A DNA stretch of 64,000 nt from an uncultured Rickettsiales bacterium (GCA_964416435.1 CAYQEG010000008.1:7120-71119), one strand, 5' to 3'. Positions 1 to 20,573 are shown, numbered from the stretch's first letter. A program made the numbers and translations. The notes: generated from the sequence alone by a model not told the origin.

Positions 1-2229
1 AGCCATCGCCCGTTGACCCGCACCGGGGACCCGACGGTTCCGGCCCCGCCCGTCAGCTGGCCGCAAGCCTCCGCCCCGATCGCCCGGGCGACCGCACAGC
101 GCACCGCCGCGTCGGCCCCCGTCGCCACGACCCGAGCGCTGACGCGCCAGGCGCGCCCCGAGACCGCCGCCCGGTTCTCGACCCCGCCCGCGTCGAGCGC
201 GATCTTCGCGGCGTCGACCCCGACCGCGTCGCAGGCCGTCGCGTCCCGCCGATCCGCCCCGACTCCGCTGAGCCGGCTGCTCGAGTCCAGCCCGTCGGTC
301 GCCAGCTCCGCGCCGGTCAGCCGCGCGGCGGCGCGCGCGTCCGAGGCGGCTCGTCCCTGGAGCGCACCTGCGTCCACCTCCCCGGTCGCCCGCACGCTCG
401 GTCGCTCGGCCGTGCCGCCGACCGCGCCGACCGCGCGTCGTCGCTTCTCGGGCCCCGGCCCCCTCGAACTGCAGCTGCCCGACGCGCCCCCCAGCTTCGC
501 GACGCCCGTCGCCGAAGCGGCCGTCGAGCCGACCATCGCGCCGACGGCGGCGCCGCCCGCCCCGACCGCGCCCGTCTCCGTGGCCAGCCTCCCGGCGGCC
601 AGCGCACCCCTCGGGGCCGGCGCCTTCGCCGGGCTGACGTCGACCGCCCGCTCCGCCGCCACGCCGGCGTCCCGGCGGGTCTCTCCGGCCAGCCGCGCGC
701 TCCAGCGCTTCGAAGCCCCGGAGTCCACCGCGATCGTGGCCCGGGCGGAAGCCCGCCGGATCACAGGTCCGCCCGCCATGCGACTCGCCGCGCGCCGCGG
801 CCTCGCGTCGGAGCCCGGCGCCGGGTTCGCTCCGACCGCATCCCTGAGCGTCGCGGCCGGCCTCGGCCGCCAGGTCGGCGTACGGCAGGCCCGACGCGGC
901 GCCTTCGACGCGCCGCTCCCGTCGATGTCGCCCGAGTGGTTCGCCCCGACGGTCGAGGCGGCAGCGCAGCAAGCCGCGCCGGCGGTCGAGGCGCCCGCCG
1001 CACCGGCGACCGCGACCCCGGTCCCGCCCGTCACCTTCCCCGCCCCGTCGGCCCCGGTCGCGCGCACGATCGCGCGGGCGTTCGAGCCGTCGGACGGCCC
1101 CTCCGCCACGCCCGCGGCCCGACGTACCGCCACCGCCTCGCCGCTGAGCCGTGCCTTCGAGCGCGCCGGTCTGCCGAGCGCGAGCGCCCCGATCGCCCGC
1201 GCCGGTGGCGGCCTCCCGCAGCCGTCCGCGACGGTCGCGGTGAGCGCCCGAGCGCTCGCCCGAACGGCCTCCGCGAAGCGCTCCGTCGCGCGCGCCCGGC
1301 CGCTCACCGGTCGGTTCGACCCGGTGCTGCCGTCGATTCCGCCCCAGGCGGTCGCCCGCGCCGAGGTCCAGGCCACCCCGGAGGCCTTCGCGGCTCGGCC
1401 CGTCACCGACGACGCCCCCGCCGCTGCTCCTTCGGCCCTCCCGGGGTCGAGCGCGCTGCGCGCCGCGGCCGCCGGCCCGGCCGCTCGCTCGACCGCCACC
1501 GTCGCCACGTCGTCGGTCGCCCGGGCGCTCGCCCGCGCGTCCACGCCCGCGGCTCAGCCCGGTTGGGACCCGTGGACCGGCGCCCCCGTCGCGACGCCCG
1601 TCGCCGGGCTGCCGTGGGCCGGTGCCCCGACGGCCGCGACCGGGTCGTCGCCGTACGTCGGCGCTTCGCTGTCCCGGACGGCGTCCCACCCGCTGACCGG
1701 CGCCCCCTCGGCCGTCGCCCGCAGCGGTGGCTGGACGGGCGCGTCGACGGCCGACCCGGCCTACCGCTCGGTCCCCGGCGCTGCCCGGGCCGACGCCAGC
1801 TACTCCGCCTGGCAGGGCGCCCCCGCCGCCCGGCGGACCGGCTTCCGCCGCGCCGCTTCGATGGAGCTGGTCAGCTTCGCGGGCCTGCCTCCCGCGGTCG
1901 CGCAGCCCGACGTCGCTCCGGTGGCCGCCTGGGCCGCGCGGTCCGTCGACCCCGCCACGGGAGCGGTCATCACGACGCCGACCGGCCCCGCCGGCTCGAC
2001 GGCCACGCGCGCGGCCGCCCGCTCCGCCGACGGCCGGCCCCCCTCCGCCGCGGCCCGACGGTCGGCCAGCCTGCCGCTCCCGACGGCCAGCGCGCCCCTC
2101 GCTCGAGGCGCCGTCCGTAGCGTCGCCGGGTCGGCCCCCCGCGGCCTCGCCCGCGCGCTGCAGCGTGACGCCGAGACGCCTTCGCGGCTCGAGCCGCGAT
2201 CGCCGGTGGGGAGCTCCCCACGGCCCTGA
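1..2229 (+). CDS. Ala/Pro/Arg/Ser-rich low-complexity protein, 5'-partial (frame open to window start)
   Basis: ORF 13..2229 begins at a TTG and its frame stays open back to nt 1. The third-codon position is very GC-rich, consistent with coding. The translation is low-complexity with recurring S/A-P-x-x-R-A motifs. No recognisable domain. Confidence 0.4.
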   Translation, partial: SHRPLTRTGDPTVPAPPVSWPQASAPIARATAQRTAASAPVATTRALTRQARPETAARFSTPPASSAIFAASTPTASQAVASRRSAPTPLSRLLESSPSVASSAPVSRAAARASEAARPWSAPASTSPVARTLGRSAVPPTAPTARRRFSGPGPLELQLPDAPPSFATPVAEAAVEPTIAPTAAPPAPTAPVSVASLPAASAPLGAGAFAGLTSTARSAATPASRRVSPASRALQRFEAPESTAIVARAEARRITGPPAMRLAARRGLASEPGAGFAPTASLSVAAGLGRQVGVRQARRGAFDAPLPSMSPEWFAPTVEAAAQQAAPAVEAPAAPATATPVPPVTFPAPSAPVARTIARAFEPSDGPSATPAARRTATASPLSRAFERAGLPSASAPIARAGGGLPQPSATVAVSARALARTASAKRSVARARPLTGRFDPVLPSIPPQAVARAEVQATPEAFAARPVTDDAPAAAPSALPGSSALRAAAAGPAARSTATVATSSVARALARASTPAAQPGWDPWTGAPVATPVAGLPWAGAPTAATGSSPYVGASLSRTASHPLTGAPSAVARSGGWTGASTADPAYRSVPGAARADASYSAWQGAPAARRTGFRRAASMELVSFAGLPPAVAQPDVAPVAAWAARSVDPATGAVITTPTGPAGSTATRAAARSADGRPPSAAARRSASLPLPTASAPLARGAVRSVAGSAPRGLARALQRDAETPSRLEPRSPVGSSPRP

Positions 2230-2240
2230 TCCCGGCGCTG

Positions 2241-2885
2241 ATGCGCGACGTGGACGACGACGGCGCCGCCGCCATCCTGGGCCGGGCCGGTGAAGCCGCC
2301 GCCCGACGACTCGGAGCGCCCACGGCGACCGGCGCCCTTCCGGGCGTCGCTTCGACCGCCACGGTCGCCCGCCAGGCCAAGCGCCGACCGATGACGTCGA
2401 GCACGCTCGCGTCGCTCAAGGGGCTGCGCGCCGGCGACCCGGCGCCGGCCGACTTCTCGGCCTCCGCGTCCCCGGCGGACCAGCCGCTCGCGGACGGCTC
2501 CCGGCTCGTGCGCACGGCCGCCCGGCGACTCTCTGCGACCACCGAAGCGGTGCGCACCGCCGACGTCGCCCGGGCAGCCGAGACGCTCGCCCGCGCCCCG
2601 CAGTCCCAGGGTCCGAAGATCAGCCGCCGCGACGTGCGCGAGCTGGTCCGCAAGGAGGTCGCCGACCTGACGACGATCTCCGCCCCGGCGCCGGTCGTGC
2701 ACCGCTCCGACATCCAGCGGCAGGTCGCCGCCGCCGCCGCCGACGGCGTGGCCCGGGAGGCCAGCCCCTCGACCCAGGCCGGAGGTGCTGCGGCCGCCGC
2801 GCGCGACCTCCAGGACTTCATGAAGCGCATCGTGCGCCGCATGGAGAAGCTGGATCGGATCCGGTCGGAGCGCGAAGTCGGCTGA
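2241..2885 (+). CDS. hypothetical protein (214 aa)
   Basis: ATG ORF with high GC3 and non-repetitive C-terminal half (..DLQDFMKRIVRRMEKLDRIRSEREVG). No recognisable motif. Confidence 0.5.
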   Translation: MRDVDDDGAAAILGRAGEAAARRLGAPTATGALPGVASTATVARQAKRRPMTSSTLASLKGLRAGDPAPADFSASASPADQPLADGSRLVRTAARRLSATTEAVRTADVARAAETLARAPQSQGPKISRRDVRELVRKEVADLTTISAPAPVVHRSDIQRQVAAAAADGVAREASPSTQAGGAAAAARDLQDFMKRIVRRMEKLDRIRSEREVG

Positions 2886-2887
2886 CG

Positions 2888-2914
2888 CGCGAGGCCGCCC
2901 GAAGAGGCCTCGCG
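2888..2914. terminator. bidirectional terminator-like hairpin between convergent genes
   Basis: Perfect inverted repeat CGCGAGGCC-(9 nt loop)-GGCCTCGCG, immediately after the stop of 2241..2885 and before the stop of the convergent minus-strand gene at 2916. No T-run follows. Confidence 0.3.
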
Positions 2915-2915: not shown

Positions 2916-5816
2916 CTACTGGCAGCGGCCCCCGGAGAGCCCGTAGAGCTTGCTCAGTTCGGGGGCCTTGGCCTGGAAGCCGAGGTCGTCGACGAACACC
3001 GTGATGGCGTAGCAGCCCGCGGCGCGGCCCTTGAACTTCGCGCCGATCGTGTACTTCTGGACCACGCCCTTGGACGGCAGCCCATCGCTGCCCTCGTAGA
3101 CGAACTGCAGCAGGCTGTCCCCCTTGACCGTCGCCGCGGACCAGCGGCCGGTGGCGCCTCCGTCAGCGCACTCGCCCTTGTCGCCCTTGGCCGGATCGAA
3201 CGTCGGGCGCATCGGCGCGTCACCGACCCGGGCGCGACCCTCGAGCTTGGCGCCCTCGGGGTTGGCGATCATCACGCAGATCTTGTGCTCGGTGCTGACC
3301 GAGGCCGCGACGGTGCCGGTCAGGCTGACCGCCACGACGAGCTTGCTCCCGGTGGGCGGCTGGACCTCGACGTAGACCCGGTCGCCGGACGCCTGGGCCT
3401 GCAGCGCCTCGACCACCGCCGGCTCGCGCATGAGGCTCGTCACGTGGCGGGTCAGGTCCGCGGTCACCCCGGCGTCGATCGGCAGCGTCGCGACGATGGC
3501 GCCGCGGCGGCTCTGCCGGAACCGGAGGGTCCAGGTGCCGTCGGTGCTGCTCCCGCCGGAGATCTCCAGGGGGTTGGCGAACGCGTTCCGACCGGTGTCG
3601 AACGTCGCCTGTTCCACCACCTTGCCCGAGTGCCAGCGCCAACTGCCGGCCGCCGGCGGGCTGGTCGTCCCCCCGCGATCGGGCGTCGGCTCCCCACCCG
3701 GCGCGAGGTTCTCGGGCTCCTCCTCCAGGGGCGTCGGGGCCACGATCCGCAGCGACTCCGAGCGGCGCAGGAAGCTCAGCTCGTCGTCGATGAACAGCTC
3801 CGCTCCCTGCGGCAGGATGATGATGTCCGCGTCGACGACCTCACCGGGGGCTCCCCACAGCCGGTCCCAGTTCCCGCCCTGACGCTGCACTGAGAAGGTG
3901 TACACCCCGTCGCCGCCCGAGCTGCGGTCGAGCCGCTGGCGCTTCAGCCCCTCCTCCGCGATGAGCCACACCTCGATCGGCTGGATGGTCGACTCGGCGT
4001 AGGCGTCCCTCTTCTGGAGCCGCAGGAGCGCCGCGGACTCCGACTCGGCGTCGGAGAACGGGACGCAGGCGATGCCCGGGTTCCAGCCCGCGCCGCAGCC
4101 GGTGAACGTGTAGGCGTAGGGCTCGCCCAGCGCGAGCACGTCGGCCCCCGGGCCGCCGTCCCCGCCCGACTGGGTGGGGTCAGCGTCCTGGCGCGCCTGG
4201 AGCATGTTGAGCACAGCCAACCCCGCCACCAGCGCGGCGAGGGCGGCGAGCAGGAGGCCGACCAGCACGAGGCCCCGGCGGTCGCTGGCGGGAGCCTCCT
4301 CGTCTTCCTCTTCCCCCTCCTCGGCCATCGCGCCCCAGTCGATTCCGGATCCGGTCCCCTCGGGCGCCGGCGCCGACGCCCGGGCCGGGGCCGGCATCGG
4401 CTCCTCGTCGTCGAACGTCTGGGCGAGCTCCTTCATGCGCGCCGACTGGGCCGACGTGCCGATCTGGGAGGGCGGCACGGGGCTCGGAGGCAGCAAGCAG
4501 GGCTCGCGCTCGACGGTGAACACCGGCTCCGCGATCGGTTCCCAGCGGTCGTTGGGGCGCAGCGACGGCGGGGCGATCGCCTGGAGCGACATGAGCGGCA
4601 CCGGCCGGCTCATCTTGTTCTGGGCGAACACCTGGAACAGCAGCGTGTCCTCTTCGATGCCCGGGTAGAGCACCAGCCCGACCTGGAACGGCACCTCGTC
4701 GAGGTCGTACCCGACCTCCCCGAGGAACAGCGCGATGCGGATGTTGTGCTCGACCGGGTCGTAGGTGTCCCCCTCGCTGAACCGGTGGGGGGAGACGATC
4801 CGGACGACCCCCAGGATCTTCTGCTCCCCGGTGGCGGGGAACGTGGCGGCCATGAAGCGCAGCGCGCCGACCAGGTCCTGGCGCTCCTTGTCGGGGTCTT
4901 CGCCCAGGTGGCCCAGGAACCGGACGCGCTTGATCGTGACGTGGTTGCCGGTCTTGGCGCCGAGCAGGACGCCGATCCGGTCCTGGTGCGTCTCGACGAC
5001 CGCGCTGGCCATACCTTCGAGGATGGAGGCGACCGGCCCCTCGGCGCGGTCCTGCCCCAACGTCAGCCAGTCCGGCGCCTCCTTGCGGACCATGCCGACC
5101 TGGTGCAGGACCGGCGTGTCGTCCTGGGCGTCGTCGTCGTCGCCGTCCCCTTCACCCTCCTCGACCCCCTCAGCCTCTACGACTTGAAACTTCCAGGGGA
5201 GCGCCGCCGTCACCTCCCTCCGGCTCTTGGCTCCGAAGAGGTGCAGCCCCGGGAGCAGCGGCGTACCCCCGCCCCGGTTGACGAAGTAGCCGACGGACGT
5301 GTCCGCAGTGCCCAGCTTGGGCGCGAGCACCAGGGCGAACTGGTAGGGCCGGTGGAAGTCGCGGTGGGTACGGAGGTCGTACCGGGACAGGAACACCGAC
5401 ATGTTGGGGTGGGTGTGGTACCAGCCCAGGAGCAGCAGCTCCTCTCCTGCTTCCTTGGAGAGGTTCTCCATCTGGTCGATGAGGTCGTCCCAGACGGAGT
5501 ACGTGAACTTGAAGTGCACCGGCGAGCTGTCTTCGTCGCGGGCGACCGCGATGTGGCTCACCTTGATGAGCGAGTTGTCCTCGCTGGTGGTGCCCAGGAG
5601 GATCCCGGCGACCTCCTTGTCGATCTGGATCGAGCGCTGGGACTCGAACTGGAGCCGGCGCGCGACCTCCCAATCGAGGTAGAGCGTGGGCATCTCCGCG
5701 TCGATGTTCTCTTCCGCGACAGCCCCGACATACAGCGTTTTCGCAGGCACGGCGAACCGGACCGACGAGTCGCCGGTCTCCTCTTCCATGAAGATCGGTT
5801 CATCCACCGAGGTCAT
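2916..5816 (-). CDS. membrane protein with N-terminal tandem MPN+/MPN- (JAMM metalloprotease) domains and large C-terminal extracytoplasmic Cys-containing domain
   Basis: Translation from MTSVDEPIFMEEE contains the JAMM motif E...HTHPNMSVFLSRYD (HxHx7Sx2D). A second MPN-like domain without HxH follows. Then one TM segment (GLVLVGLLLAALAALVAGLAVLNML) and about 500 aa of Cys-containing domain. The ORF-track N-terminal extension to 7838 is antisense to the FHA-SLT gene and was rejected. Start ATG at 5816. Confidence 0.8.
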   Translation of the reverse strand: MTSVDEPIFMEEETGDSSVRFAVPAKTLYVGAVAEENIDAEMPTLYLDWEVARRLQFESQRSIQIDKEVAGILLGTTSEDNSLIKVSHIAVARDEDSSPVHFKFTYSVWDDLIDQMENLSKEAGEELLLLGWYHTHPNMSVFLSRYDLRTHRDFHRPYQFALVLAPKLGTADTSVGYFVNRGGGTPLLPGLHLFGAKSRREVTAALPWKFQVVEAEGVEEGEGDGDDDDAQDDTPVLHQVGMVRKEAPDWLTLGQDRAEGPVASILEGMASAVVETHQDRIGVLLGAKTGNHVTIKRVRFLGHLGEDPDKERQDLVGALRFMAATFPATGEQKILGVVRIVSPHRFSEGDTYDPVEHNIRIALFLGEVGYDLDEVPFQVGLVLYPGIEEDTLLFQVFAQNKMSRPVPLMSLQAIAPPSLRPNDRWEPIAEPVFTVEREPCLLPPSPVPPSQIGTSAQSARMKELAQTFDDEEPMPAPARASAPAPEGTGSGIDWGAMAEEGEEEDEEAPASDRRGLVLVGLLLAALAALVAGLAVLNMLQARQDADPTQSGGDGGPGADVLALGEPYAYTFTGCGAGWNPGIACVPFSDAESESAALLRLQKRDAYAESTIQPIEVWLIAEEGLKRQRLDRSSGGDGVYTFSVQRQGGNWDRLWGAPGEVVDADIIILPQGAELFIDDELSFLRRSESLRIVAPTPLEEEPENLAPGGEPTPDRGGTTSPPAAGSWRWHSGKVVEQATFDTGRNAFANPLEISGGSSTDGTWTLRFRQSRRGAIVATLPIDAGVTADLTRHVTSLMREPAVVEALQAQASGDRVYVEVQPPTGSKLVVAVSLTGTVAASVSTEHKICVMIANPEGAKLEGRARVGDAPMRPTFDPAKGDKGECADGGATGRWSAATVKGDSLLQFVYEGSDGLPSKGVVQKYTIGAKFKGRAAGCYAITVFVDDLGFQAKAPELSKLYGLSGGRCQ

Positions 5817-5957
5817 GCGCGCCGCTCTGGGGTGGGCGTTCGGCCGAAATTGACAAGCAACACGGCCTCTTACAGACTTCCGATTGATATCACGGGGGGT
5901 CGGTGTGCCACAAGACGGGCGCCCCGCTGGCCCACCCCCCCGAAGAACGCTGGGACC
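5817..5957. promoter_or_regulatory. divergent intergenic promoter region (JAMM gene / FHA-SLT gene)
   Basis: 141-bp gap between divergently oriented starts at 5816 (-) and 5958 (+). Confidence 0.3.
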
Positions 5958-7676
5958 ATGCCAGACCGGATCCGCTTCACCCTCATCGAGGACGGCGAAG
6001 ACGTACGCCCGTACGACTTCGATACCCAGACCGTTCAGATCGGTGCGGATCCCGATCGCGGTGACAACCTCCTGATCCCGCTGCCGCCCCGGCTGCGCCA
6101 CGTGCGCGCCAAGATCCTCCGCCAGGCCGACTACGTCGAACTCGAGGTCAAGGGCGGCCCCATCTGGGTCCAGGGCTCCCGGCTGGAGGAGGGCGACGCC
6201 GTCGAGCTGAACGTCGGCGACCTGCTCGTCTTCGGCACCCGCAAGCCCCGCGGCGTCCGCCTCCGGTTCGAGTACGCCACCGAAGCCGCGATCGTGATCG
6301 ACGACGTGGCGGACTGGACCGCCTCCGCCGCCCCCAAGAAGAAGCGAGGTTCGGCGGCCGAGGACGACGCGTTCGCGTTCGAGGAGGAGGTCGACCCGAC
6401 CGCGGGGATGAACCCGTACCAGAAGGCCCTGTTCTGGTACCGGAAGCAGTACGCGAAGTTCGCCAAGTGGCGCAAGAAGGCGGCCCGGGTCAGCTACTGG
6501 GTCAGCACGATCGGGATCGTCTGGTCCAAGGTCGGCAAGGTCGTCACCCTGGTCGGCGGCGTGGCGATCCTCGGAGGCGGCTGGTTCATGGAGAGCAAGG
6601 ACCGCAAGGAGGCCGAAGAGGCGGAGGAGGTGGCCGTCACCGACGAAGCGGCCGCCGTCCGGGCGGAGCGGGAGGCGTTCCTCGCCCAGACCGAGATCCA
6701 GCGCCAGATGCGCGAGTGCAACTGCCCCGGCTCCCCGGGCGTCGACCAGGTCGAGCTCGACGGCGCTGAGGCGCTGCTGACGGCGTTCGCGTCGGACGAG
6801 ACGTTCGCCCCCCAGCGCCGCATCCCGATGCCCGGCGGCGAATCCCAGAGCCTCGCCGGCCTGGTCGGCGGCTACATCGTGACCGCCTCGCGCAGCAAGA
6901 CGACCATTCGCGCGACGCGCGACCGCATCTGCAGCTCCCTGGACGGTCGGCGCATGCAGACGGTCGACACCGAGCGCCAGAACCTCGGGCTCGACCCCGT
7001 GTACAGCTACCTGCCGTTCGTCGAGTCGAACTGGTGCAGCCTGTCGGTCGATATCTACGGTCGTCGGGGGATGATGCAGCTGACGCCCTCTTCGGCGCGT
7101 CGGGCGTTCGAGCTCGTCGACGGCATGACCCCGGACATCCCGAAGGTCGACGTCGAAGAGCACATGGCCTGGCTGGAGGAGAAGGGCGGCCGCTACGGCG
7201 GCCCCTACGGCCTGCTCGCCAAGTGCCCCCAGGGCGCCCGGGACGAGTACTCGCAGACCTTCTACGAGGGGGTGAAGCACCCCGACCACCCCGAGCGCAT
7301 CGACCCGGAGGACCCCCGGACCGACTGGCAGGCGTCGATGAAGGCGGGGCTGCTGCTGCTGCAAGAGATCGACGAGGGCTACCGGGAGCGCGGTTTCCGC
7401 CCCGTCGACAGCGTGCTGCTGACCCTCGCCGCCTACGACATGGGCCACGACGGGGTCGAGGCCTGGATCAAGGCGGCGGCCAAGGGCTACAAGATCGAGG
7501 ACCGCGCCGCGCTGTCCTACACCCACGTGTACGGCGGCGCGATCGCGGTCGCCGCCAAGGAGGACGACCCCGACCGGGCCGCGCGCATCCTCGAGGGCGC
7601 CAAGGCGCCGGCGAAGGCGATGGCCTTCTTCCTGGTCGCGCAGACCAACCCCGAAATGCTGGCTTGCGAGGACTGA
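5958..7676 (+). CDS. bitopic protein: N-terminal FHA-like domain, TM helix, C-terminal lytic transglycosylase (SLT) domain (paralog 1)
   Basis: MPDRIRFTLIEDGEDVRPYDFDTQTVQIGADPDRGDNLLI..VGDLLVFG..LRFEY has an FHA-like pattern. TM segment WVSTIGIVWSKVGKVVTLVGGVAILGGGWF. SLT motifs FVESNWCSL..GRRGMMQLT and AAYDMGHDGV. 60-70% identical to the next gene. Confidence 0.8.
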   Translation: MPDRIRFTLIEDGEDVRPYDFDTQTVQIGADPDRGDNLLIPLPPRLRHVRAKILRQADYVELEVKGGPIWVQGSRLEEGDAVELNVGDLLVFGTRKPRGVRLRFEYATEAAIVIDDVADWTASAAPKKKRGSAAEDDAFAFEEEVDPTAGMNPYQKALFWYRKQYAKFAKWRKKAARVSYWVSTIGIVWSKVGKVVTLVGGVAILGGGWFMESKDRKEAEEAEEVAVTDEAAAVRAEREAFLAQTEIQRQMRECNCPGSPGVDQVELDGAEALLTAFASDETFAPQRRIPMPGGESQSLAGLVGGYIVTASRSKTTIRATRDRICSSLDGRRMQTVDTERQNLGLDPVYSYLPFVESNWCSLSVDIYGRRGMMQLTPSSARRAFELVDGMTPDIPKVDVEEHMAWLEEKGGRYGGPYGLLAKCPQGARDEYSQTFYEGVKHPDHPERIDPEDPRTDWQASMKAGLLLLQEIDEGYRERGFRPVDSVLLTLAAYDMGHDGVEAWIKAAAKGYKIEDRAALSYTHVYGGAIAVAAKEDDPDRAARILEGAKAPAKAMAFFLVAQTNPEMLACED

Positions 7677-7683
7677 CGCGACC

Positions 7684-9393
7684 ATGCCCAGGCTGATCCG
7701 GTTCACGCTGATCGAAGACGAGCAGGACGTGCGTCCGTACGACTTCGACACGCAGACCGTGCAGATCGGCGCCGACCCCGATCGCGGCGACAACCTGCTG
7801 ATCGACCTGCCGCCCCGGCTCAAGCACGTGCGCGCCAAGGTCTTCCGCCAGGAGGACTACGTCGAGATGGAGGTCAAGGGCGGCCCCATCTGGGTGGGCG
7901 GCAGCAAGCTCGAGGACGGCGACGTCGTCGAGCTCAACGTCGGCGACCTGCTGATCTTCGGCACCAAGAAGCCTCGCGGCGTGCGCCTGCGGTTCGAGTA
8001 CGCCACCGAAGCGTCGATCTTCATCGACGACGTGGCCGACTGGAGCGCATCGGCGGCGCCCAAGAAGAAGCGCGGGAAGTCGGCCGAGGACGACCTCACC
8101 TTCGACGAGGAGAAGGACCCCACCGAGGGGATGAACCCCTACCAGAAGGGCGTCTACTTCTACCGTCAGCAGTACGCGAAGTTCGCGAAGTTCCGCAAGA
8201 AGGCGTCACAGCTCGGCTACTGGACCAGCCTCGCCGCGGTCCTGATGAGCAAGGCCCGGGGCATCCTGATGCTCGGGGCCGGCCTCGGCGCCCTCGGATT
8301 CGGCTGGTACAACGCCCACCTGGGGGCCGAGAAGGCCGGGGACGAGCAGGTCATCGCGGAGTCCCGCACCCAGCAGGCCATTCTCGCGCGGGACGAGGCG
8401 CTGCAGGCCCGGGCCGAGCTCGAGGGGCTGCAGGCGGAGTGCGGCTGCGGCCCGGGTGACGAAGGCGGCTCGGCGGTCGCCGCCACCGAGGCGCTCACCA
8501 CCTACTTCGACGACGACAACGGCAACTTCGCTCCCGAGCGCGCCGTCGCCATGCCCGACCGCCAGATGCGCAGCATGGGCGGGCTGGTGGGCCGCTACAT
8601 GACGGTCGCGAGCCGGAACAACCGGCTGATCAACACGACCATCGACCGGGTCTGCGGCGGCGACAAGGACCGCATGGAGGTGGTGCAGCGGGCGCTGGGC
8701 ACATACGACCTGCACGAGGTCTACAGCTTCATCCCGTTCGTCGAGTCCCAGTGGTGTGAGCTCGCCATCTCGTTCACCGGGCCGCGCGGGATGATGCAGT
8801 TCACCCGCGCCACGGCGAAGGAGGCGTTCGGGAAGATCGACCCGACCCAGGCCAACATCCCCAACTTCCCGTTCAAGTCCCACTACGACTGGATGCTTTC
8901 CAAGAGCGGCAAGTACGGCGGCTACTACTCCATGCTCGCCCAGTGCCCCGCCACGGTCCGCGCCGACTACGTCCGCACCTTCTACGACGGGCAGACCAAC
9001 CCCGACTATCCGCGCCGCACCGACCCCCGCGACCCCCGCACCGACTGGGAGTGGGCGTCCAAGGCGGCGTTCAGCTGGCTGGAGACGCTGGACAGCTACT
9101 ACAAGGGCAAGGGCTACGGGGAGACCGACTCGGCGATGCTCGCGATGGCCGCCTACAACCAGGGGCGTTCGATGGTCCAGCGCTGGATCGACAAGGCCGA
9201 GGAGGGCTACCCCGACCAGGCCGACAGCCTGACCTACACGCACATCTACGGCGGCGGCATGAAGCTGCTGATGGAAGAGAAGGACGCGGAACAGAAGCGC
9301 CGCATCAAGGAGGGGATGGAGTACCCCCTCAAGACGTTCGGCTACTACCTGGTGACCGCGCCGAAGCTGGACGCGAAGCGCTGCCGGGACTGA
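7684..9393 (+). CDS. FHA-like / TM / lytic transglycosylase (SLT) protein (paralog 2)
   Basis: MPRLIRFTLIEDEQDVRPYDFDTQTVQIGADPDRGDNLLI.. FHA-like N-terminus. TM WTSLAAVLMSKARGILMLGAGLGALGFGWY. SLT catalytic motifs FVESQWCELAISFTGPRGMMQFT and AAYNQGRSMV, YTHIYGG. Confidence 0.85.
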   Translation: MPRLIRFTLIEDEQDVRPYDFDTQTVQIGADPDRGDNLLIDLPPRLKHVRAKVFRQEDYVEMEVKGGPIWVGGSKLEDGDVVELNVGDLLIFGTKKPRGVRLRFEYATEASIFIDDVADWSASAAPKKKRGKSAEDDLTFDEEKDPTEGMNPYQKGVYFYRQQYAKFAKFRKKASQLGYWTSLAAVLMSKARGILMLGAGLGALGFGWYNAHLGAEKAGDEQVIAESRTQQAILARDEALQARAELEGLQAECGCGPGDEGGSAVAATEALTTYFDDDNGNFAPERAVAMPDRQMRSMGGLVGRYMTVASRNNRLINTTIDRVCGGDKDRMEVVQRALGTYDLHEVYSFIPFVESQWCELAISFTGPRGMMQFTRATAKEAFGKIDPTQANIPNFPFKSHYDWMLSKSGKYGGYYSMLAQCPATVRADYVRTFYDGQTNPDYPRRTDPRDPRTDWEWASKAAFSWLETLDSYYKGKGYGETDSAMLAMAAYNQGRSMVQRWIDKAEEGYPDQADSLTYTHIYGGGMKLLMEEKDAEQKRRIKEGMEYPLKTFGYYLVTAPKLDAKRCRD

Positions 9394-9413
9394 GCGCCCC
9401 GACGGGGCCGCGC

Positions 9414-10268
9414 TCAGCCTCCGTTGACGAACTGCAGGAACTCGTCCTCGCTGCAGTCGACCAGCTGAACGCCCATGCCCGAGTCGACGCCCTTGGACGC
9501 CTTGCGGGTCCATCGGACCTCCGCCTGCAGGGCGAACTCGCGGCCCGTGACCGGGTGCACGATGAACAGGGACAGCATGTCCCCCTTGGGGAGCGGCTTG
9601 GGGTGCGCGATGAACATGCCGCCGCGGCTGACGTTCTGCGTGTAGAAGTCGCGCAGCGAACCTTCGGTGCGCATGCGGACGCGAAAGCGTCCGAGCTTAC
9701 GGGGGCCACCTCGGCGGGTCAGCTTGACCATCTGCTCCTCGGGCAGATGCTCGCGGCGCTCGGGATCCGGCGGGGCGGGCAGCGTGCCGGTCGACAGCTG
9801 CTGCAGGTACATCGCCCACTTCGCCTTCAGCGTGGAGTCCATCAGGAAGAACCGCAGCCCCATGCCGGGCATGCCGCCGCAGAAGGCGGCCTCGCCGGGG
9901 GAGACGACGCGCTCGACGGTGCACAGCCCGCGCAGCACCGGTCCACCGGGGAGCACCGAGACGATCTGGATGAGCTCGCCCACCGGCACGTGGTCGGGCG
10001 ACTCCACGAAGATGCCCTCGACGCTGACGTCGACGGCCGTGCGGCGCCGGTCCCGTCCGGCCCATCGGAGCGTGACGTGCAGGTCCACCGGGTAGCGCTC
10101 GCAGGGCACCACGCCGTTCCCCGGGGCCACCTGGAGGTGGTACGGCTCGTCCCCCGACGCGCCGGATCGTCCCAGCTCCGGGGCGTCCTGCGCTGTCTCC
10201 TCGTTCGCGACCTCGGGGGTCGGCTCGGGGGCGGTGACCGGTTCGATCCGGGCAGCAGTCGCGTGCAT
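9414..10268 (-). CDS. tandem PilZ-domain protein (c-di-GMP receptor-like)
   Basis: Two PilZ signatures: ..RDRRRTAVDVSVEG.. and ..RFRVRMRTEG..QNVSRGGMFI.. (RxxxR ... D/NxSxxG). Confidence 0.7.
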   Translation of the reverse strand: MHATAARIEPVTAPEPTPEVANEETAQDAPELGRSGASGDEPYHLQVAPGNGVVPCERYPVDLHVTLRWAGRDRRRTAVDVSVEGIFVESPDHVPVGELIQIVSVLPGGPVLRGLCTVERVVSPGEAAFCGGMPGMGLRFFLMDSTLKAKWAMYLQQLSTGTLPAPPDPERREHLPEEQMVKLTRRGGPRKLGRFRVRMRTEGSLRDFYTQNVSRGGMFIAHPKPLPKGDMLSLFIVHPVTGREFALQAEVRWTRKASKGVDSGMGVQLVDCSEDEFLQFVNGG

Positions 10269-10419: not shown

Positions 10420-11370
10420 ATGATCCAGGTGAGATCGCTGACCCGAAGGTACGGCTCGCTGGTCGCCGTCGGGGACGTCTCGTTCGAGGTCGCCGACGGC
10501 GAAGTGCTCGGCTTCCTCGGCCCCAACGGGGCGGGCAAGACCACGACGATGCGCATCCTGACCGGCTCGCTCGGCGCGACGACCGGCGAGGTGTTCGTCG
10601 CGGGGCACGACATGCGCACCGCGTCACGCCAGGCGCGAGGGGAGATCGGCTACCTGCCCGAGTCCCCTCCCCTGTACCGCCAGATGACGGTCCGCAGCTA
10701 CATCGACTTCGCCGCCCGCATCCGGGGCATCGGCGGTCGAGACCGCCGGGCCAAGGTCGACCGGGCCATCGAGCGCGCCGGGCTGACCGACGTCTCGGGT
10801 CGCCTCATCGACCACCTGAGCAAGGGCTTCCGGCAGCGGGTCGGCCTCGCCCAGGCGCTGGTCCACGAACCCAGGCTGCTGATCCTCGACGAGCCGACCT
10901 CGGGGCTGGACCCTGCCCAGGTCGCCGAGATCCGGGACCTCATCCACGAGCTCCGAGGCGACCACACGATCGTGCTGTCGACCCACATCCTGTCCGAGGT
11001 GCGAGCCACCTGCGACCGGGTGCTGATCATCAACAAGGGTCGACACATCGCCGGCCCCGCGACCGAAGACGAGCTGCGGGAGCAGCTGGGCGCGGCGCGC
11101 ACCATCCGGTTGGAGCTGGCCCGCGCCGACGACGGCACCGCCGACGCGCTGGCCGCGGTGACGGGCGTCGAGGCGGTCGAAGACGTGGGCGACGGCGCGT
11201 TCGACGTCACGACCGGCAGCGAGGACGCCCGCGAGGCGGTCAACGCGGCCGCGACGGCGTTCGGGCTGCTGGAGAGCCGCTCCCGCGGCGGACTGGAGGA
11301 GCTGTACCTCCGGGCCGTGAGCGAAGACCCGCCCGACGCCGACGGCGAGGACGAGGAGGCGGTCGCATGA
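10420..11370 (+). CDS. ABC transporter ATP-binding protein (GldA-like)
   Basis: MIQVRSLTRRYG.. Walker A GPNGAGKTT, signature LSKGFRQRVGLA, Walker B LLILDEPTSGLD. RBS GAGGGAA upstream. The ORF-track start at 10234 was rejected as an upstream extension. Confidence 0.85.
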   Translation: MIQVRSLTRRYGSLVAVGDVSFEVADGEVLGFLGPNGAGKTTTMRILTGSLGATTGEVFVAGHDMRTASRQARGEIGYLPESPPLYRQMTVRSYIDFAARIRGIGGRDRRAKVDRAIERAGLTDVSGRLIDHLSKGFRQRVGLAQALVHEPRLLILDEPTSGLDPAQVAEIRDLIHELRGDHTIVLSTHILSEVRATCDRVLIINKGRHIAGPATEDELREQLGAARTIRLELARADDGTADALAAVTGVEAVEDVGDGAFDVTTGSEDAREAVNAAATAFGLLESRSRGGLEELYLRAVSEDPPDADGEDEEAVA

Positions 11371-12125
11371 TGACCTGGCACATCGCCCGTCGGGAGCTCA
11401 TCGCCTACCTGACCTCCCCGTTCGCGTGGGTCGTGAGCGCCGCGTTCCTGTTCATGAACGGCTTCTTCTTCGCGATCTACGTCGGCTCGTACGCCGCCTA
11501 CTCGGCCGAGGCCGCCGCCTACGGGCAGGAGGTGTCGGTCGCGGTGGAGGTGGTGCAGGCCTTCGTCGGCACCTGCGGCCTGCTGCTGGTGCTCTTCGCC
11601 CCGCTGCTGACCATGCGCTCGCTCGCCACCGAGCAGCGGGACGGCTCGCTGGCGCTGCTCCTCAGCTCGCCGGTCAGCTCGTGGGAGATCGTGCTCGGCA
11701 AGCTCGCCGGGCTGGTCGGCTTCTGGCTGGCCCTGTTCGTCGTCGGCATGGGCTACGTCCCGCTGCTGCTCTCCTGGTACGGCGGCCTGCAGGCCGGTCC
11801 GCTCTTCTCGGCGACCCTCGGCATGGTGCTGCTGGCGACGTTCGCCTCGGCCGTCGGGCTGGCCGCCAGCTCGCTGAGCGGCAGCCAGATGATGGCCGCG
11901 GTCGTCTCCTGGGCGGTCCTGCTGTTCCTGTGGATCGTCGGCTTCCTGGCCGAGTTCGACGTCCCGATCATCAAGACGATCGGCGAGTGGCTCGGCATGG
12001 CCAGCCACTACGACGAGATGGCCAAGGGGCTCATCACGGTGACCGACCTGTCCGCCTTCGTGCTGCTCGGTTTCGTCTTCTTGTTCGTCGCGCATCAGCG
12101 CGTCGAGTCCCACCGGTGGAAGTAG
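11367..12125 (+). CDS. ABC-2 family permease (GldF-like)
   Basis: ATGA overlap with the ATPase gene. Six predicted hydrophobic segments. N-terminus MMTWHIARRELIAYLTSPFAWVV is typical of ABC-2/GldF permeases. Confidence 0.8.
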   Translation: MMTWHIARRELIAYLTSPFAWVVSAAFLFMNGFFFAIYVGSYAAYSAEAAAYGQEVSVAVEVVQAFVGTCGLLLVLFAPLLTMRSLATEQRDGSLALLLSSPVSSWEIVLGKLAGLVGFWLALFVVGMGYVPLLLSWYGGLQAGPLFSATLGMVLLATFASAVGLAASSLSGSQMMAAVVSWAVLLFLWIVGFLAEFDVPIIKTIGEWLGMASHYDEMAKGLITVTDLSAFVLLGFVFLFVAHQRVESHRWK

Positions 12126-12135
12126 GGGCCGGGCC

Positions 12136-13710
12136 ATGATCGCGACCGTCGTCGGACGAATCCTTGGCGCGCTGGGCCTGATGGCCGCGTGCCTCTATTT
12201 CCTGGTCGGCTACTTCCTGCCCGAGGTCTCGGGGGTCGCCTGGATCGGCGCCACCGCGGCGATCGGGATCGCCGCCTGGGTCTACCTGGACTGGGACGCC
12301 CTGGCCCGCTTCTTCGGCTCGCGGGGGGGCCGCGAGCAGATCATGTCCTGGGTCCTCGTGATCGTGGTCGCCGGCATCTGCATGCTCCTGATGAGCATCG
12401 CCGAGCGCACCGACAAGCGTTGGGACCTGACCGAGGGCCGGATCCACTCGTTGGACGAGCGCACGGTCGGGGTGCTCGGTGACGTCCCCGACGGCATCGA
12501 GGTCAGCGTGCAGGCCTTCTACGTCGCCTCGTTCGACCAGATGGAGGACCGCAAGCGGCGCGAATTCCAGCGCCTGCTGGAGGCCGCGGAGGCGACCGGC
12601 ACGTCCGTCGAGTTCGACCTCGTCGACCCGGAGTTGGACCCGCTGGTCGCGTCCCGGGCGGAGGTCAACAGCAACGGCACGGTGATCGTGACCGCCCGCC
12701 CATCGGCCGGCGGGGAGCCGCGCACTGAGCGGCTGTACAGCCCCGACGAGCAGGAGCTGACCAACGCGCTGGTCCGGGTGATGAGCGCCCGGCGCAGCAA
12801 GATCGTGTTCGTCAGCGGCCACGGCGAGCGGGAGCCGTCCACCCCGGGCGAGCGCGGGCTCAGCCAGCTGGCGCAGCACCTGCGCAGCCTCGGGTTCGAG
12901 ACCGGCACCTGGAACACGGCGACCGAGCCGGACCTGCCGGGGGACGCCGACGTGCTGATCGTCGCCGGCCCGACGCTCCCCCTGGAGAGCCGCGAGGCCG
13001 GCCAGATCCGGCAATGGGTGGAGGACGGCGGCGCCCTGGCGCTGCTCGCCGAGCCGCCGATGCCCGGTCAGGGCGACGGCCGCACGGGCCTGGAGGGGGC
13101 GCTCCTCAGCTGGGGGCTCAAGCTCCGGGACGACATCGTGCTCGACGAGCTCGGCGCGCGGATCACCAACGACCCGTCGGCTCCCATCGCCGACACGTTC
13201 GGATTCCACGAGACGACCCAGGGCTTCGACCTGCCGGTGATCTTCTCGGTCGCCCGCTCGATCGAGGAGGCCAACGCGCTGCCGGAGCAGGTGACGGTGT
13301 TCCACCTCGCCAAGACGGGCAGCCGCGCCTGGGGCGAGACGGACCTCGAGGCGGACGAGGTCTCGTTCGACGAGGACGAGGACGTCGAGGGGCCGCTGAC
13401 CCTGATCGCGGTCGCCGAGCTGCACCGGGAGAAGGGCGCCAGCGGGCGCGTGCTGGTGGCCGGCGACGTCGACTGGCTCACCGACGGGCTGGTCGTGACC
13501 CGGGGCAACCTGGACTTCGCGGCGCGGACCATCGGCTGGCTCGGCCAGGCCGACGACGTCATCCAGCTGCCCCCGCGCGAAGGCGGCGGCGAAGGGCTGG
13601 ACCTGTCGCCCCTGCAGATGCTGCTGACGGTGTTCATCAGCGTCTTCGCGGTGCCCGGCGCCGCGGCGGCGGCCGGGGTGATCGTCTGGATCTGGCGGCG
13701 CGGGCTCTGA
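12136..13710 (+). CDS. GldG-like ABC-transport auxiliary protein
   Basis: Follows the ATPase and permease. N-terminal and C-terminal TM helices flank a large soluble domain, the GldG-family architecture. Confidence 0.7.
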   Translation: MIATVVGRILGALGLMAACLYFLVGYFLPEVSGVAWIGATAAIGIAAWVYLDWDALARFFGSRGGREQIMSWVLVIVVAGICMLLMSIAERTDKRWDLTEGRIHSLDERTVGVLGDVPDGIEVSVQAFYVASFDQMEDRKRREFQRLLEAAEATGTSVEFDLVDPELDPLVASRAEVNSNGTVIVTARPSAGGEPRTERLYSPDEQELTNALVRVMSARRSKIVFVSGHGEREPSTPGERGLSQLAQHLRSLGFETGTWNTATEPDLPGDADVLIVAGPTLPLESREAGQIRQWVEDGGALALLAEPPMPGQGDGRTGLEGALLSWGLKLRDDIVLDELGARITNDPSAPIADTFGFHETTQGFDLPVIFSVARSIEEANALPEQVTVFHLAKTGSRAWGETDLEADEVSFDEDEDVEGPLTLIAVAELHREKGASGRVLVAGDVDWLTDGLVVTRGNLDFAARTIGWLGQADDVIQLPPREGGGEGLDLSPLQMLLTVFISVFAVPGAAAAAGVIVWIWRRGL

Positions 13711-18109: not shown

Positions 18110-18128
18110 GACCTGTCTCCTGGTCCCG

Positions 18129-18422
18129 CTAGGCGGGGATGTGCTCCATCACGAGGCGGATCTCGTCGCCCTCTTCCACCCCGGCGTCGCCGAGCGACTC
18201 GTTGGGCTGGAGGATGTAGTGCTTGCGACCGCCGCTGCGACGATCGGGCACGGAGATCTTGAACGAGCGGGGATTCCCCTGCTCGTCGGTCATGTTCATC
18301 TTCAGGTTGCGAGCCAGAAACGGCGCCAGCTTGCTCGCAGGCACGTCGCTGCTGATCTTGACCGTTCGATTCGTTCCGCCGGTGGGCTCCTTGAGCCGCA
18401 CCTTCACCACATTGTCGCTCAT
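18129..18422 (-). CDS. small beta-grasp (ubiquitin-like) protein lacking C-terminal Gly-Gly
   Basis: 97 aa. VKVRLKEPTGG..RTVKISSDV..ASKLAPFLARNL..SFKISV..EGDEIRLV fits a beta-grasp pattern. Ends ..MEHIPA. Sits between the membrane zinc-ribbon gene and the E2. Confidence 0.55.
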   Translation of the reverse strand: MSDNVVKVRLKEPTGGTNRTVKISSDVPASKLAPFLARNLKMNMTDEQGNPRSFKISVPDRRSGGRKHYILQPNESLGDAGVEEGDEIRLVMEHIPA

Positions 18423-20564: not shown

Positions 20565-20573
20565 CGGTCTCTC

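What the first reader, a model, noticed from the sequence alone, without database searches (positions are those of the whole stretch)
5958..9393. Tandem paralogs of an FHA-like / TM / lytic-transglycosylase architecture
Two adjacent genes, about 65% identical, each encode a cytoplasmic FHA-like domain, a single TM helix and a periplasmic SLT domain with an intact ES..W..GMMQ catalytic motif. The architecture implies phosphothreonine-signal-controlled, localized peptidoglycan cleavage. This is the kind of device used to insert envelope-spanning machines (secretion or injection systems, pili). The genes are divergently transcribed from the JAMM membrane protein and lie near the baseplate locus.
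Basis: seen in the sequence. Interest (0 to 1): 0.6.

Follow-up and report, generated by a model that had tools for sequence, protein, structure and literature searches.

The report
Membrane-anchored cell-wall cutters with FHA-like tails
Two neighbouring genes encode inner-membrane enzymes that should cut the bacterial cell wall from the outside while a very conserved FHA-shaped domain sits inside the cell, but that domain lacks the residues FHA domains use to read phosphothreonine, so the proposed phospho-switch is unlikely; it is an uncharacterised variant of a known enzyme type found only in one uncultured bacterial lineage.

Summary
Genes at 5958-7676 and 7684-9393 (+) are tandem paralogs, 51% identical rather than about 65%. 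Each has an N-terminal FHA-fold domain, one N-in/C-out membrane segment and a periplasmic family-1 SLT domain with ES / GMMQ motifs.

- The N-terminal domain models as an FHA fold; the top 50 PDB fold matches were almost all FHA domains.
- It keeps the Gly, His and GD landmarks but lacks the Arg, Ser and Asn that bind phosphothreonine. No sequence method detects it as FHA.
- Pfam scans of the GC3-filtered ORFs across the 64 kb window found no Ser/Thr kinase.

Gene B is the ancestral, catalytically strict copy. Gene A belongs to a lineage-specific duplicate clade whose catalytic motifs decay. A second, independent duplication lost the catalytic Glu.

The family has about 46 sequence clusters, all from an uncultured Myxococcota/"Deltaproteobacteria" MAG clade. 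It always lies head-to-head with a JAB/MPN membrane protein and shares an invariant promoter region with it. No link to a contractile injection machine is shown.

A Spirochaetales protein has the same architecture with a canonical FHA domain, so the layout itself is not unique.

Verdict: a new, uncharacterised variant of a membrane-anchored lytic transglycosylase, of moderate interest.

The parts
5958..7676 (+). Gene A: the FHA-like / TM / SLT protein (572 aa), the divergent duplicate copy
   Evidence: ORF and translation. Pfam SLT 27.6 bits. Clusters with P0020, P0022, P0027, P0028 and P0034, a duplicate clade with degenerate motifs such as AYDMG in place of AYNQG.
7684..9393 (+). Gene B: the FHA-like / TM / SLT protein (569 aa), ortholog of the single-copy ancestral gene
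   Evidence: Translation. Pfam SLT 44.7 bits. It is closer than gene A to every single-copy homolog. Motifs PFVES.WCE, GPRGMMQFT and AYNQG are invariant in its lineage.
5958..6281 (+). Gene A FHA-like cytoplasmic domain (aa 1-108)
   Evidence: 85% identical to the gene B domain. Same alignment columns as the modelled domain.
7684..8007 (+). Gene B FHA-like cytoplasmic domain (aa 1-108)
   Evidence: AlphaFold2 model with mean pLDDT 85 and 10 beta strands. The top 50 Foldseek PDB hits were almost all annotated FHA domains, with Ki67 at TM 0.82. It lacks the Arg/Ser/Asn pThr triad.
8008..8133 (+). Gene B conserved linker, predicted disordered (aa 109-150), with DDVADW, KKKR and F.EE.D motifs
   Evidence: pLDDT is below 50 for 110-144, yet family column identity is 74% and D115, D116 and F140 are invariant.
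8254..8313 (+). Gene B Gly-rich membrane segment (aa about 191-210), preceded by a Lys/Arg-rich juxtamembrane helix (aa 151-190)
   Evidence: Hydropathy maximum, with flank charges +6/0 on the N side and 2/4 on the C side. A helix in the full-length model.
6516..6587 (+). Gene A Gly-rich membrane segment (aa about 187-210)
   Evidence: Hydropathy maximum, with N-flank K+R 8 / D+E 0 and C-flank 4/9.
8704..9390 (+). Gene B periplasmic SLT catalytic domain (aa 341-569): Glu354 at 8743-8745, GMMQ at 8788-8799, an insertion of about 60-70 aa (aa about 386-444), DPRTDW at 9031-9048 and AAYNQG from 9148
   Evidence: Pfam SLT matched in two stretches. The PDB profile search finds an 8rhe LysM/SLT protein, Slt70, MltF and T7 gp16, with ES aligned to ES. 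pLDDT is about 90. Coordinates.
6984..7673 (+). Gene A periplasmic SLT-like domain: Glu356 at 7023-7025, GMMQ at 7068-7079, AAYDMG from 7428
5850..5913 (.). Conserved divergent promoter region between the JAB gene and gene A: TTGACA (5850-5855), 17 nt, CAGACT (5873-5878), palindrome TGATATCA (5885-5892), ACAA (5910-5913)
   Evidence: These blocks are invariant in 11 aligned intergenic regions from loci whose proteins are only 45-66% identical. The pattern and the palindrome are unique in the window. Reading them as promoter elements is inference.
2916..5816 (-). Divergent neighbour: JAB/MPN metalloprotease membrane protein (966 aa), always adjacent to the family
   Evidence: Pfam JAB 56 bits. 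An HxHx7SxxD motif and a hydrophobic segment are visible in the translation. It is adjacent and divergent in every locus long enough to show it. It has the same narrow distribution.
9414..10268 (-). Convergent neighbour: PilZ-domain protein (284 aa)
   Evidence: Pfam PilZ 72 bits. Detected in about ten of the related loci, not detected in L001/L002 or L014, and L008 is too short to tell.

Best explanation
Both genes encode bitopic inner-membrane proteins with the N-terminus in the cytoplasm and the C-terminus in the periplasm.

- The periplasmic end is a family-1 (MltD/Slt70-like) lytic transglycosylase held on a helical stalk of about 45 residues. It would cleave peptidoglycan glycan strands close to where the protein is anchored.
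- The cytoplasmic end is a divergent FHA-fold domain followed by a conserved acidic/basic linker. This part is the most strongly conserved in the protein.
- I propose that it works as a phospho-independent protein-docking module, as in YscD or EssC-type FHA domains. It would fix where, or when, the enzyme acts by binding a conserved cytoplasmic partner.
- Gene B is the conserved catalytic enzyme. Gene A is a lineage-specific duplicate that keeps the docking module but is relaxing its catalytic motifs. It is most likely an accessory or regulatory partner, or an enzyme with altered specificity, that uses the same dock.
- The partner or machine served is unknown. The best candidate is the always-adjacent, co-regulated JAB/MPN membrane protein and the conserved island around it.

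Shown: gene structure, paralogy, FHA fold, absence of the pThr triad, SLT motifs, topology indicators, synteny, promoter conservation.

Inferred: enzymatic activity, docking function, heteromeric or accessory role of gene A, link to the island.
For: - Paralogy and domain-wise identity.
- FHA fold; collinear alignment keeps G29, H48 and D88.
- Loss of the Arg/Ser/Asn triad; no Pfam FHA hit.
- No kinase or phosphatase domain found in the scanned ORFs of the window or recorded in the relatives' flanks.
- SLT above the Pfam threshold, and ES / GMMQ / AYNQG aligned to an 8rhe SLT protein, Slt70 and MltF.
- The catalytic motifs are invariant in all B-type and single-copy members.
- Positive-inside charge distribution; the six invariant Cys all lie C-terminal to the membrane segment; there is no N-terminal signal sequence.
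- The N-terminal module is more conserved than the enzyme domain. Third-position identity between A and B is only 68%, which argues for purifying selection rather than recent gene conversion.
- Two independent duplications both degrade the catalytic motifs of the extra copy.
- Constant divergent pairing with the JAB membrane protein and an invariant intergenic promoter/palindrome.
- Both families have the same narrow phylogenetic distribution.
Against: - No activity, localisation or interaction data exist.
- All homologs come from one clade in which about 25 kb of gene order is conserved, so adjacency is weak evidence of functional coupling.
- Conservation of the FHA-like domain is uniform (apical loops 0.785, distal loops 0.784), so no binding face can be named.
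- Basic residues on the apical loops (R34, R/K47, R50) could still bind a phospho- or acidic ligand.
- Foldseek with the full-length model returned no SLT structure among the top 50 hits, so the catalytic domain is structurally divergent and has an insertion of about 60-70 aa.
- Gene A in this window still has the Glu-Ser pair, so it may be fully active.
Confidence: 0.5

Rival explanations
1. The FHA-like domain reads a phosphothreonine mark placed by a Ser/Thr kinase, so peptidoglycan cleavage is switched on by phospho-signalling.
For: The fold is FHA. A Spirochaetales protein with the same FHA-TM-SLT layout has a fully canonical FHA with GR, SxxH and NG, so the ancestral design may have been phospho-dependent. 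The apical loops carry conserved basic residues R34 and R50. From general knowledge, Myxococcota genomes usually encode many Ser/Thr kinases elsewhere.
Against: The Arg, Ser and Asn that contact the phosphate and peptide are replaced in every member, by A/C/S/N/G, R/K/G/S and an invariant Gly-Pro. Pfam FHA and YscD models miss the domain. No kinase or phosphatase domain was found in the scanned ORFs of the 64 kb window or recorded in the flanks of relatives.
Confidence: 0.12
2. These are housekeeping membrane-bound lytic transglycosylases for growth, division or turnover, an MltG-like role. Their position next to the JAB gene and the island reflects only conserved gene order within a clade.
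For: All homologs lie in one clade with extensive synteny. The Spirochaetales FHA-TM-SLT gene sits among housekeeping genes with no secretion machinery. Pfam scans found no sheath, tube or secretion ATPase in the window.
Against: A general housekeeping lytic transglycosylase would be expected to have relatives outside one clade, yet only about 46 clusters were found among 5.8 billion. The N-terminal module has no relative among 1.84 billion representatives. The promoter region shared with the JAB gene is invariant. The cytoplasmic module is under stronger constraint than the enzyme.
Confidence: 0.25
3. The periplasmic domains are mainly peptidoglycan-binding anchors (pseudo-enzymes) that tether a cytoplasmic complex to the cell wall, rather than cutters. 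This would apply above all to gene A.
For: Extra copies lose catalytic residues in two independent duplications: ES to EA/ET/DA, and PFGRS / PFADS. Four of the A-type orthologs carry no precomputed SLT annotation. The SLT fold is divergent.
Against: In the B/single-copy lineage the full set of catalytic motifs is invariant across about 35 diverged sequences. That is the signature of a working active site. Gene A in this window keeps Glu356-Ser357 and GMMQ.
Confidence: 0.1
4. They are lysis enzymes that release phage-tail-like particles (an endolysin of a tailocin or eCIS cassette).
For: Baseplate-type genes (gp25, J, I) lie 12-17 kb away. There is a weak PHROG endolysin match at E=2e-5. The membrane segment is Gly/Ala-rich, as in signal-anchor-release endolysins.
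Against: The membrane segment is internal, behind a 190-residue cytoplasmic domain, so it cannot act as a releasable N-terminal signal anchor. No holin or spanin, sheath or tube was recognised. There is no phage homolog.
Confidence: 0.04

Closest known systems
Uncharacterised FHA-TM-SLT proteins of Spirochaetales (P0106 / P0107, NCBI MCH5149600.1 'FHA domain-containing protein')
   Same: Same three-part layout. The SLT part is homologous (hhalign probability 96.9%, 31% identity), sharing IPFVES, RGMxQF and DxRTD.
   Different: Its FHA is canonical (GR, SxxH, NG; Pfam FHA and Yop-YscD_cpl) and cannot be aligned to this family's N-terminus. It is 421 aa and lacks the insertion of about 60-70 aa, the six conserved Cys and the conserved linker. 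Its context is housekeeping. It also has no experimental data that I could find.
Family-1 lytic transglycosylases (PDB 8rhe LysM/SLT protein, Slt70, MltF; Pfam PF01464)
   Same: Catalytic ES, GLMQ-type and AYNxG motifs, aligned in the PDB profile search.
   Different: From general knowledge, the known members are soluble or lipoprotein-anchored and have no cytoplasmic domain. Here the enzyme is anchored by a membrane segment, has a large insertion between the GMMQ and RTD motifs, and has six invariant Cys.
T3SS inner-ring proteins YscD/EscD/MxiG together with the dedicated lytic transglycosylase EtgA
   Same: Cytoplasmic FHA-type domain, one TM segment and a periplasmic domain. YscD appears among the fold hits (4d9v, rank 33). 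A dedicated peptidoglycan cutter whose activity is restricted and stimulated by a machine subunit (PMC5073101).
   Different: In T3SS the FHA protein and the peptidoglycan enzyme are separate polypeptides, and the periplasmic part of YscD builds a ring. No T3SS genes are present here.
T6SS accessory pair TagH (Fha1) and MltE/TagX
   Same: An FHA protein controls assembly, and a recruited peptidoglycan enzyme opens the wall for the membrane complex (PMC13584744).
   Different: TagH is a true pThr reader working with a kinase, whereas here the triad is missing and no kinase is nearby. Pfam scans found no T6SS core genes in the window; only gp25/J/I-type genes lie 12-17 kb away.
T7SS EssC/YukB N-terminal FHA domains
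   Same: FHA-fold domains at the cytoplasmic face of a membrane protein (9qks_H among the fold hits). A YukD-like ubiquitin-fold gene lies in the same island.
   Different: EssC carries FtsK-type ATPase domains, not a periplasmic enzyme. The YukD hit here is below the Pfam threshold.

Membership tests
FHA domain (Pfam PF00498) | Beta-sandwich FHA fold (11 strands in canonical FHA domains) | tested here: met
   AlphaFold2 model with pLDDT 85 and 10 strands by DSSP. The top 50 Foldseek PDB hits were almost all annotated FHA domains, with target-normalised TM 0.6-0.82.
FHA domain (Pfam PF00498) | Conserved structural Gly (of the GR motif), His (of SxxH) and GD motif | tested here: met
   G29, H48 and D88 are invariant columns in the joint alignment with GarA, Ki67, Rad53 and P0106. 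H48 is aligned to the FHA His by hhalign.
FHA domain (Pfam PF00498) | Phosphothreonine-binding Arg (GR), Ser (SxxH) and Asn (beta6-beta7 loop) | tested here: not met
   Position 30 is A/C/S/N/G. Position 45 is R/K/G/S. Positions 67-68 are an invariant Gly-Pro. These mappings come from sequence alignments only; no structural superposition was available.
FHA domain (Pfam PF00498) | Recognised by the family profile | tested here: not met
   hmmscan of 23 N-termini at E<=10 gave FHA in 1 of 23 (E=0.24) and Yop-YscD_cpl in none. A PDB profile search found no FHA. hhalign against 5 canonical FHA sequences gave only 54% probability.
FHA domain (Pfam PF00498) | Binds pThr peptides | not testable with these tools
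   Needs binding assays.
Family-1 lytic transglycosylase (SLT, PF01464) | Profile match above the curated threshold | tested here: met
   27.6 bits (A) and 44.7 bits (B) against a cut-off of 21.3.
Family-1 lytic transglycosylase (SLT, PF01464) | Catalytic Glu in the ES motif, plus GLMQ-type and AYNxG motifs | tested here: met
   Gene B and all B-type or single-copy homologs have PFVES, GMMQ and AYNQG invariant. ES is aligned to the ES of an 8rhe SLT protein, Slt70 and MltF. Gene A has ES and GMMQ but AYDMG. Its orthologs vary (EA, ET, DA).
Family-1 lytic transglycosylase (SLT, PF01464) | Lysozyme-like all-helical fold superposable on solved SLT domains | tested here: inconclusive
Family-1 lytic transglycosylase (SLT, PF01464) | Cleaves MurNAc-GlcNAc bonds, forming 1,6-anhydroMurNAc | not testable with these tools
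   Needs an enzymatic assay.
Dedicated peptidoglycan-lytic enzyme of a secretion or injection machine (EtgA, VirB1, MltE-type role) | Encoded within, or physically recruited by, an envelope-spanning machine | tested here: inconclusive
   The genes lie in a conserved island with a JAB membrane protein, a PilZ protein, an ABC transporter, E1/E2/Ubl and gp25/J/I genes. Pfam found no sheath, tube, secretin or secretion ATPase. Synteny is known only within one clade.

The most novel reading that the evidence does not exclude
The FHA-like module and its conserved Lys-rich/acidic linker may be the receiver of the island's own ubiquitin-like signalling system. That system comprises an E1 (ThiF), a weakly matching E2-like protein, a weakly matching YukD-like Ubl, and the adjacent membrane JAB/MPN protease that shares the promoter region. 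Under this reading, localised cell-wall cutting in these bacteria would be switched by Ubl conjugation and deconjugation at the inner membrane instead of by phosphorylation. It might serve to assemble or fire a baseplate-containing envelope machine. Gene A would be the non-catalytic regulatory subunit.
Probability: 0.08. Interest if true: 0.85.

Novelty: new variant of a known kind. Interest (0 to 1): 0.42.

Why it matters
Lytic transglycosylases are normally controlled from the periplasm or by lipoprotein anchoring. An enzyme wired directly to a cytoplasmic docking domain would show how a cell can decide from the inside where its wall is opened.

The case also shows an FHA fold that is invisible to sequence profiles and has lost its phospho-reading residues. 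That is a caution against inferring phospho-signalling from fold alone.

The repeated decay of catalytic motifs in duplicated copies is a small natural experiment in pseudo-enzyme evolution.

The practical value is limited for now. The family is confined to uncultured MAGs and no partner is known.

Tried and rejected
- Pfam and NCBIfam on full-length proteins gave SLT only and no FHA.
- A PDB sequence-profile search with the N-terminus gave only chance hits to thiol peroxidase and Cmr6.
- Foldseek with the full-length model was meant to place the SLT domain, but it returned only FHA hits in the top 50.
- A profile search of 1.84 billion representatives with the N-terminal domain found no relatives outside the family. 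The extra hits are repeat proteins, which I treat as false positives.
- PADLOC and PHROGs gave nothing for A or B except a weak endolysin match. tblastn against phages gave no match.
- The idea that the apical FHA loops are more conserved than the rest was rejected: 0.785 against 0.784.
- Recent gene conversion as the reason for 85% N-terminal identity is unlikely. Third-position identity is only 68%, and 29% of identical residues use different codons.
- A search for the promoter palindrome elsewhere in the window, as a test for a regulon, found it to be unique.
- The consensus promoter/terminator scan found nothing in 5600-9700.
- Literature searches for an FHA-SLT fusion or a baseplate-ubiquitin link found nothing relevant.
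- Pfam and PHROGs on the genes upstream of the JAB gene in L001, checked for sheath or tube, gave only weak VWA and DUF2345 hits.


Full report
**1. What is there**

The window is about 70% G+C. Two ORFs on the + strand, 5958-7676 (gene A, 572 aa) and 7684-9393 (gene B, 569 aa), are separated by 7 nt. They align end to end: BLASTP gives 51% identity, 66% positives, E=0.

Identity is very uneven along the protein:

| Region | A vs B identity |
|---|---|
| N-terminal domain, aa 1-108 | 85% |
| Linker, aa 109-150 | 76% |
| Juxtamembrane helix | 58% |
| Membrane segment | 30% |
| Periplasmic coiled coil | 21% |
| Periplasmic region, aa 253-569 (four segments) | 36-49% |

The high N-terminal identity is not recent gene conversion. 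Third-position identity is only 68%, and 29% of identical residues use different codons.

**2. The C-terminal domain**

- Pfam SLT (PF01464) is above threshold in both proteins, matched in two stretches.
- A profile of the family finds, among solved structures, an 8rhe LysM/SLT protein, Slt70, MltF and T7 gp16. The family's PFVES aligns to their catalytic ES motif.
- GMMQ and AAYNQG follow. An insertion of about 60-70 residues lies between GMMQ and a conserved DPxDPRTDW motif.
- The full-length AlphaFold2 model gives pLDDT around 90 for residues 260-569, which are all helical.
- Foldseek on that model listed only FHA hits in its top 50, so the SLT domain is structurally divergent.

**3. Topology**

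- There is no N-terminal signal sequence.
- There is one hydrophobic, Gly-rich segment (B about 191-210, A about 187-210).
- The N-side flank carries 6-8 Lys/Arg and no acidic residues. The C-side flank is net acidic.
- All six invariant cysteines (B: C253, C255, C324, C358, C421, C567) lie on the C-terminal side.

This supports an N-in/C-out orientation with the SLT domain in the periplasm. It is an inference from sequence rules, not a measurement.

**4. The N-terminal domain**

Evidence for an FHA fold:
- An AlphaFold2 model of residues 1-125, built from a 23-sequence alignment, has mean pLDDT 85 and a 10-strand beta sandwich.
- The top 50 Foldseek PDB hits were almost all annotated FHA domains, including Ki67, GarA/OdhI, Rad53 and kanadaptin. 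YscD is at rank 33 and T7SS EssC at rank 40.

Sequence methods do not see it:
- Pfam FHA hits 1 of 23 members at E=0.24, and the YscD model hits none.
- The PDB profile search returns chance hits only.
- hhalign against five canonical FHA sequences reaches only 54% probability. The GarA sequence was verified against PDB; the other four are from memory.

A joint alignment with GarA, Ki67, Rad53 FHA1 and a Spirochaetales FHA is collinear. It keeps the Gly of 'GR' (G29), the His of 'SxxH' (H48) and the 'GD' motif (D88) as invariant columns. The three residues that bind the phosphothreonine peptide are not kept:
- the Arg is A/C/S/N/G;
- the Ser is R/K/G/S;
- the Asn falls on an invariant Gly67-Pro68.

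No Pkinase or PP2C domain was found when the GC3-filtered ORFs of the 64 kb window were scanned. None is recorded within +/-10 kb in two distinct relatives. Phospho-control is therefore not supported. It cannot be excluded outright, because R34, R/K47 and R50 sit in the loops that form the binding surface in canonical FHA domains.

Conservation is uniform over the domain: apical loops 0.785 and distal loops 0.784. The linker is predicted to be disordered but carries near-invariant DDVADW and F.EE.D motifs around a KKKR patch. This pattern suggests short linear binding motifs.

**5. Family and distribution**

- A search of 5.8 billion clusters finds only 46 relatives. The near-full-length ones are 565-574 aa; five are shorter fragments (320-392 aa). 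All come from metagenomes or MAGs.
- Source labels include 'Deltaproteobacteria', 'Proteobacteria' and 'uncultured Rickettsiales'. One neighbouring JAB protein is labelled Myxococcota.
- The N-terminal domain has no relative outside the family among 1.84 billion representatives.
- A profile search added one outsider, a 421-aa Spirochaetales protein (P0106/P0107). It has a canonical FHA (GR, SxxH, NG), a membrane segment and an SLT domain homologous to this one (hhalign 96.9%).

The FHA-TM-SLT layout is therefore not unique to this clade. I found no paper describing it. The Spirochaetales gene lies among housekeeping genes.

**6. The duplication**

- Most related genomes carry one copy, and it is always closer to gene B than to gene A.
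- In a neighbour-joining tree, gene A groups with P0020, P0022, P0027, P0028 and P0034. Contig-length evidence suggests these are the second copies in genomes that also have a B-type gene.
- All B-type and single-copy sequences carry PFVES.WCE, a near-invariant GPRGMMQFT (one GLMQ) and AYNQG without exception.
- The A-type clade shows ES changing to EA, ET or DA, GPRG changing to GRRG, and AYNQG changing to AYD...
- An independent duplicate pair (P0025, P0030) has PFGRS and PFADS, so the catalytic Glu is lost.
- In L006 the A-type copy is split into two tblastn segments in different frames. This could be a frameshift or an assembly error.

All copies keep the N-terminal module and the six Cys. 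Gene A in this window still has Glu356-Ser357 and GMMQ, but AYDMG. The extra copy therefore appears to be drifting away from catalysis while keeping its cytoplasmic contacts.

**7. Context**

- In every locus long enough to show it, the family lies head-to-head with a membrane protein of about 950-1000 aa. That protein has a eukaryote-type JAB/MPN domain with an intact HxHx7SxxD motif.
- The JAB family has the same narrow distribution, 52 clusters.
- The intergenic region contains blocks that are invariant across 11 loci whose proteins are only 45-66% identical. These are TTGACA (5850-5855), 17 nt, CAGACT (5873-5878), a perfect palindrome TGATATCA (5885-5892) and ACAA (5910-5913).
- I read these as a sigma-70-type promoter for gene A that overlaps a divergent promoter or operator for the JAB gene. 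That reading is inference.
- The motif occurs nowhere else in the window.
- Downstream lie a convergent PilZ protein, a GldA/F/G-like ABC transporter, an HmuY-like protein and an IstB-like AAA protein.
- From 17.5 kb, a minus-strand cluster holds a weakly matching E2-like gene, a weakly matching YukD-like Ubl, a ThiF/E1, Tail_P2_I, a 1279-aa Baseplate_J protein and gp25.
- Much of this order recurs in the related loci where the contigs extend far enough.
- No sheath, tube, secretin or secretion ATPase was recognised in the window or in the genes upstream of the JAB gene in a relative.

The proposed role in inserting an injection machine therefore remains a hypothesis, supported only by within-clade synteny.

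**8. Most likely mechanism**

- These are inner-membrane-anchored lytic transglycosylases whose catalytic domain is presented to the sacculus on a helical stalk.
- A strongly constrained, phospho-independent FHA-like docking module with linker motifs ties the enzyme to a conserved cytoplasmic partner and so restricts where the wall is cut.
- Gene B is the enzyme. Gene A is an accessory or altered-specificity duplicate that uses the same dock.
- The adjacent JAB membrane protein is the best candidate partner.
- The closest functional analogies are YscD plus EtgA in T3SS and TagH plus MltE in T6SS (PMC5073101; PMC13584744). Here the docking domain and the enzyme are fused in one chain and the phospho-reader residues are absent.

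Confidence is 0.5 for this statement as a whole. It is higher for the architecture and the loss of the pThr triad, and lower for the partner.

**9. Verdict**

The phospho-signalling inference is not supported, and the machine-insertion inference is untested. This is a new, uncharacterised variant of a known enzyme kind, confined to an uncultured lineage. Interest is moderate (0.42).

Noticed in passing
window 17507-26644 (minus strand), with 2916-5816: One minus-strand cluster encodes gp25 (26219-26644), a 1279-aa Baseplate_J protein (22606-26442), Tail_P2_I (21553-22602), an unknown protein, ThiF/E1 (19212-20573), another unknown, a YukD-like ubiquitin-fold protein (18132-18500, 26.4 bits, just below threshold) and a UBC/E2-like protein (17507-18148, 24.9 bits, below threshold). 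Together with the membrane JAB/MPN protease this looks like a ubiquitin-like conjugation set joined to baseplate genes. The Ubl is up to 94% identical and the E2 about 75% identical in relatives whose other island proteins are about 50% identical.
   Followed up: partly
window 5850-5913: There is an invariant promoter-like block with a perfect palindrome TGATATCA between the JAB gene and gene A. It is conserved in 11 loci and unique in the window. The two predicted divergent promoters would overlap around 5873-5892.
   Followed up: yes
window 1-2900 (+ strand): This stretch has 75-81% G+C. A long open frame encodes an Ala/Pro/Ser/Arg-rich low-complexity sequence. It probably corresponds to the C-terminal part of the 1303-1467-aa protein that lies convergent to the JAB gene in relatives. 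The reading frame seems to change near 2170-2230, and no Pfam or PHROG match was found.
   Followed up: partly
window 2916-5816 (minus strand): After its catalytic JAB domain (aa about 60-156), the JAB membrane protein has a second region (aa about 280-440) that by eye resembles a metal-free MPN domain. A hydrophobic segment and a C-terminal part of about 380 aa with no family match follow. The layout is reminiscent of an Rpn11/Rpn8-like MPN+/MPN- pair in one chain.
   Followed up: no
window 9391-9416: An imperfect G+C-rich hairpin (7 + 3 bp with a 2-nt bulge) contains the stop codons of both convergent genes, gene B (TGA at 9391-9393) and the PilZ gene (TCA at 9414-9416). It has no T-run and may be a bidirectional terminator (read by eye).
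   Followed up: no
L006 3927-5767: The gene-A-type copy in this MAG is split into two tblastn segments in different frames. This is either a frameshifted pseudogene or an assembly error.
   Followed up: no
L018 10001-11266 (Spirochaetales MAG, GCA_022508205.1): A 421-aa protein has a canonical FHA domain, one membrane segment and an SLT domain. It lies directly after two BcrAD_BadFG/DUF2229 genes in a housekeeping neighbourhood.
   Followed up: partly
window 27239-63998: The rest of the window is energy metabolism. It includes pyruvate:ferredoxin oxidoreductase-type genes, RnfC-like and FMN-binding genes, and a large set of multi-haem cytochrome c genes. One of these carries a collagen-repeat match (43306-44646) and another carries NHL repeats (60205-63171).
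   Followed up: no
window 10420-13707: A GldA/GldF/GldG-like ABC transporter (ATPase, ABC-2 permease, ABC_transp_aux) follows the PilZ gene. It is syntenic in most relatives.
   Followed up: no
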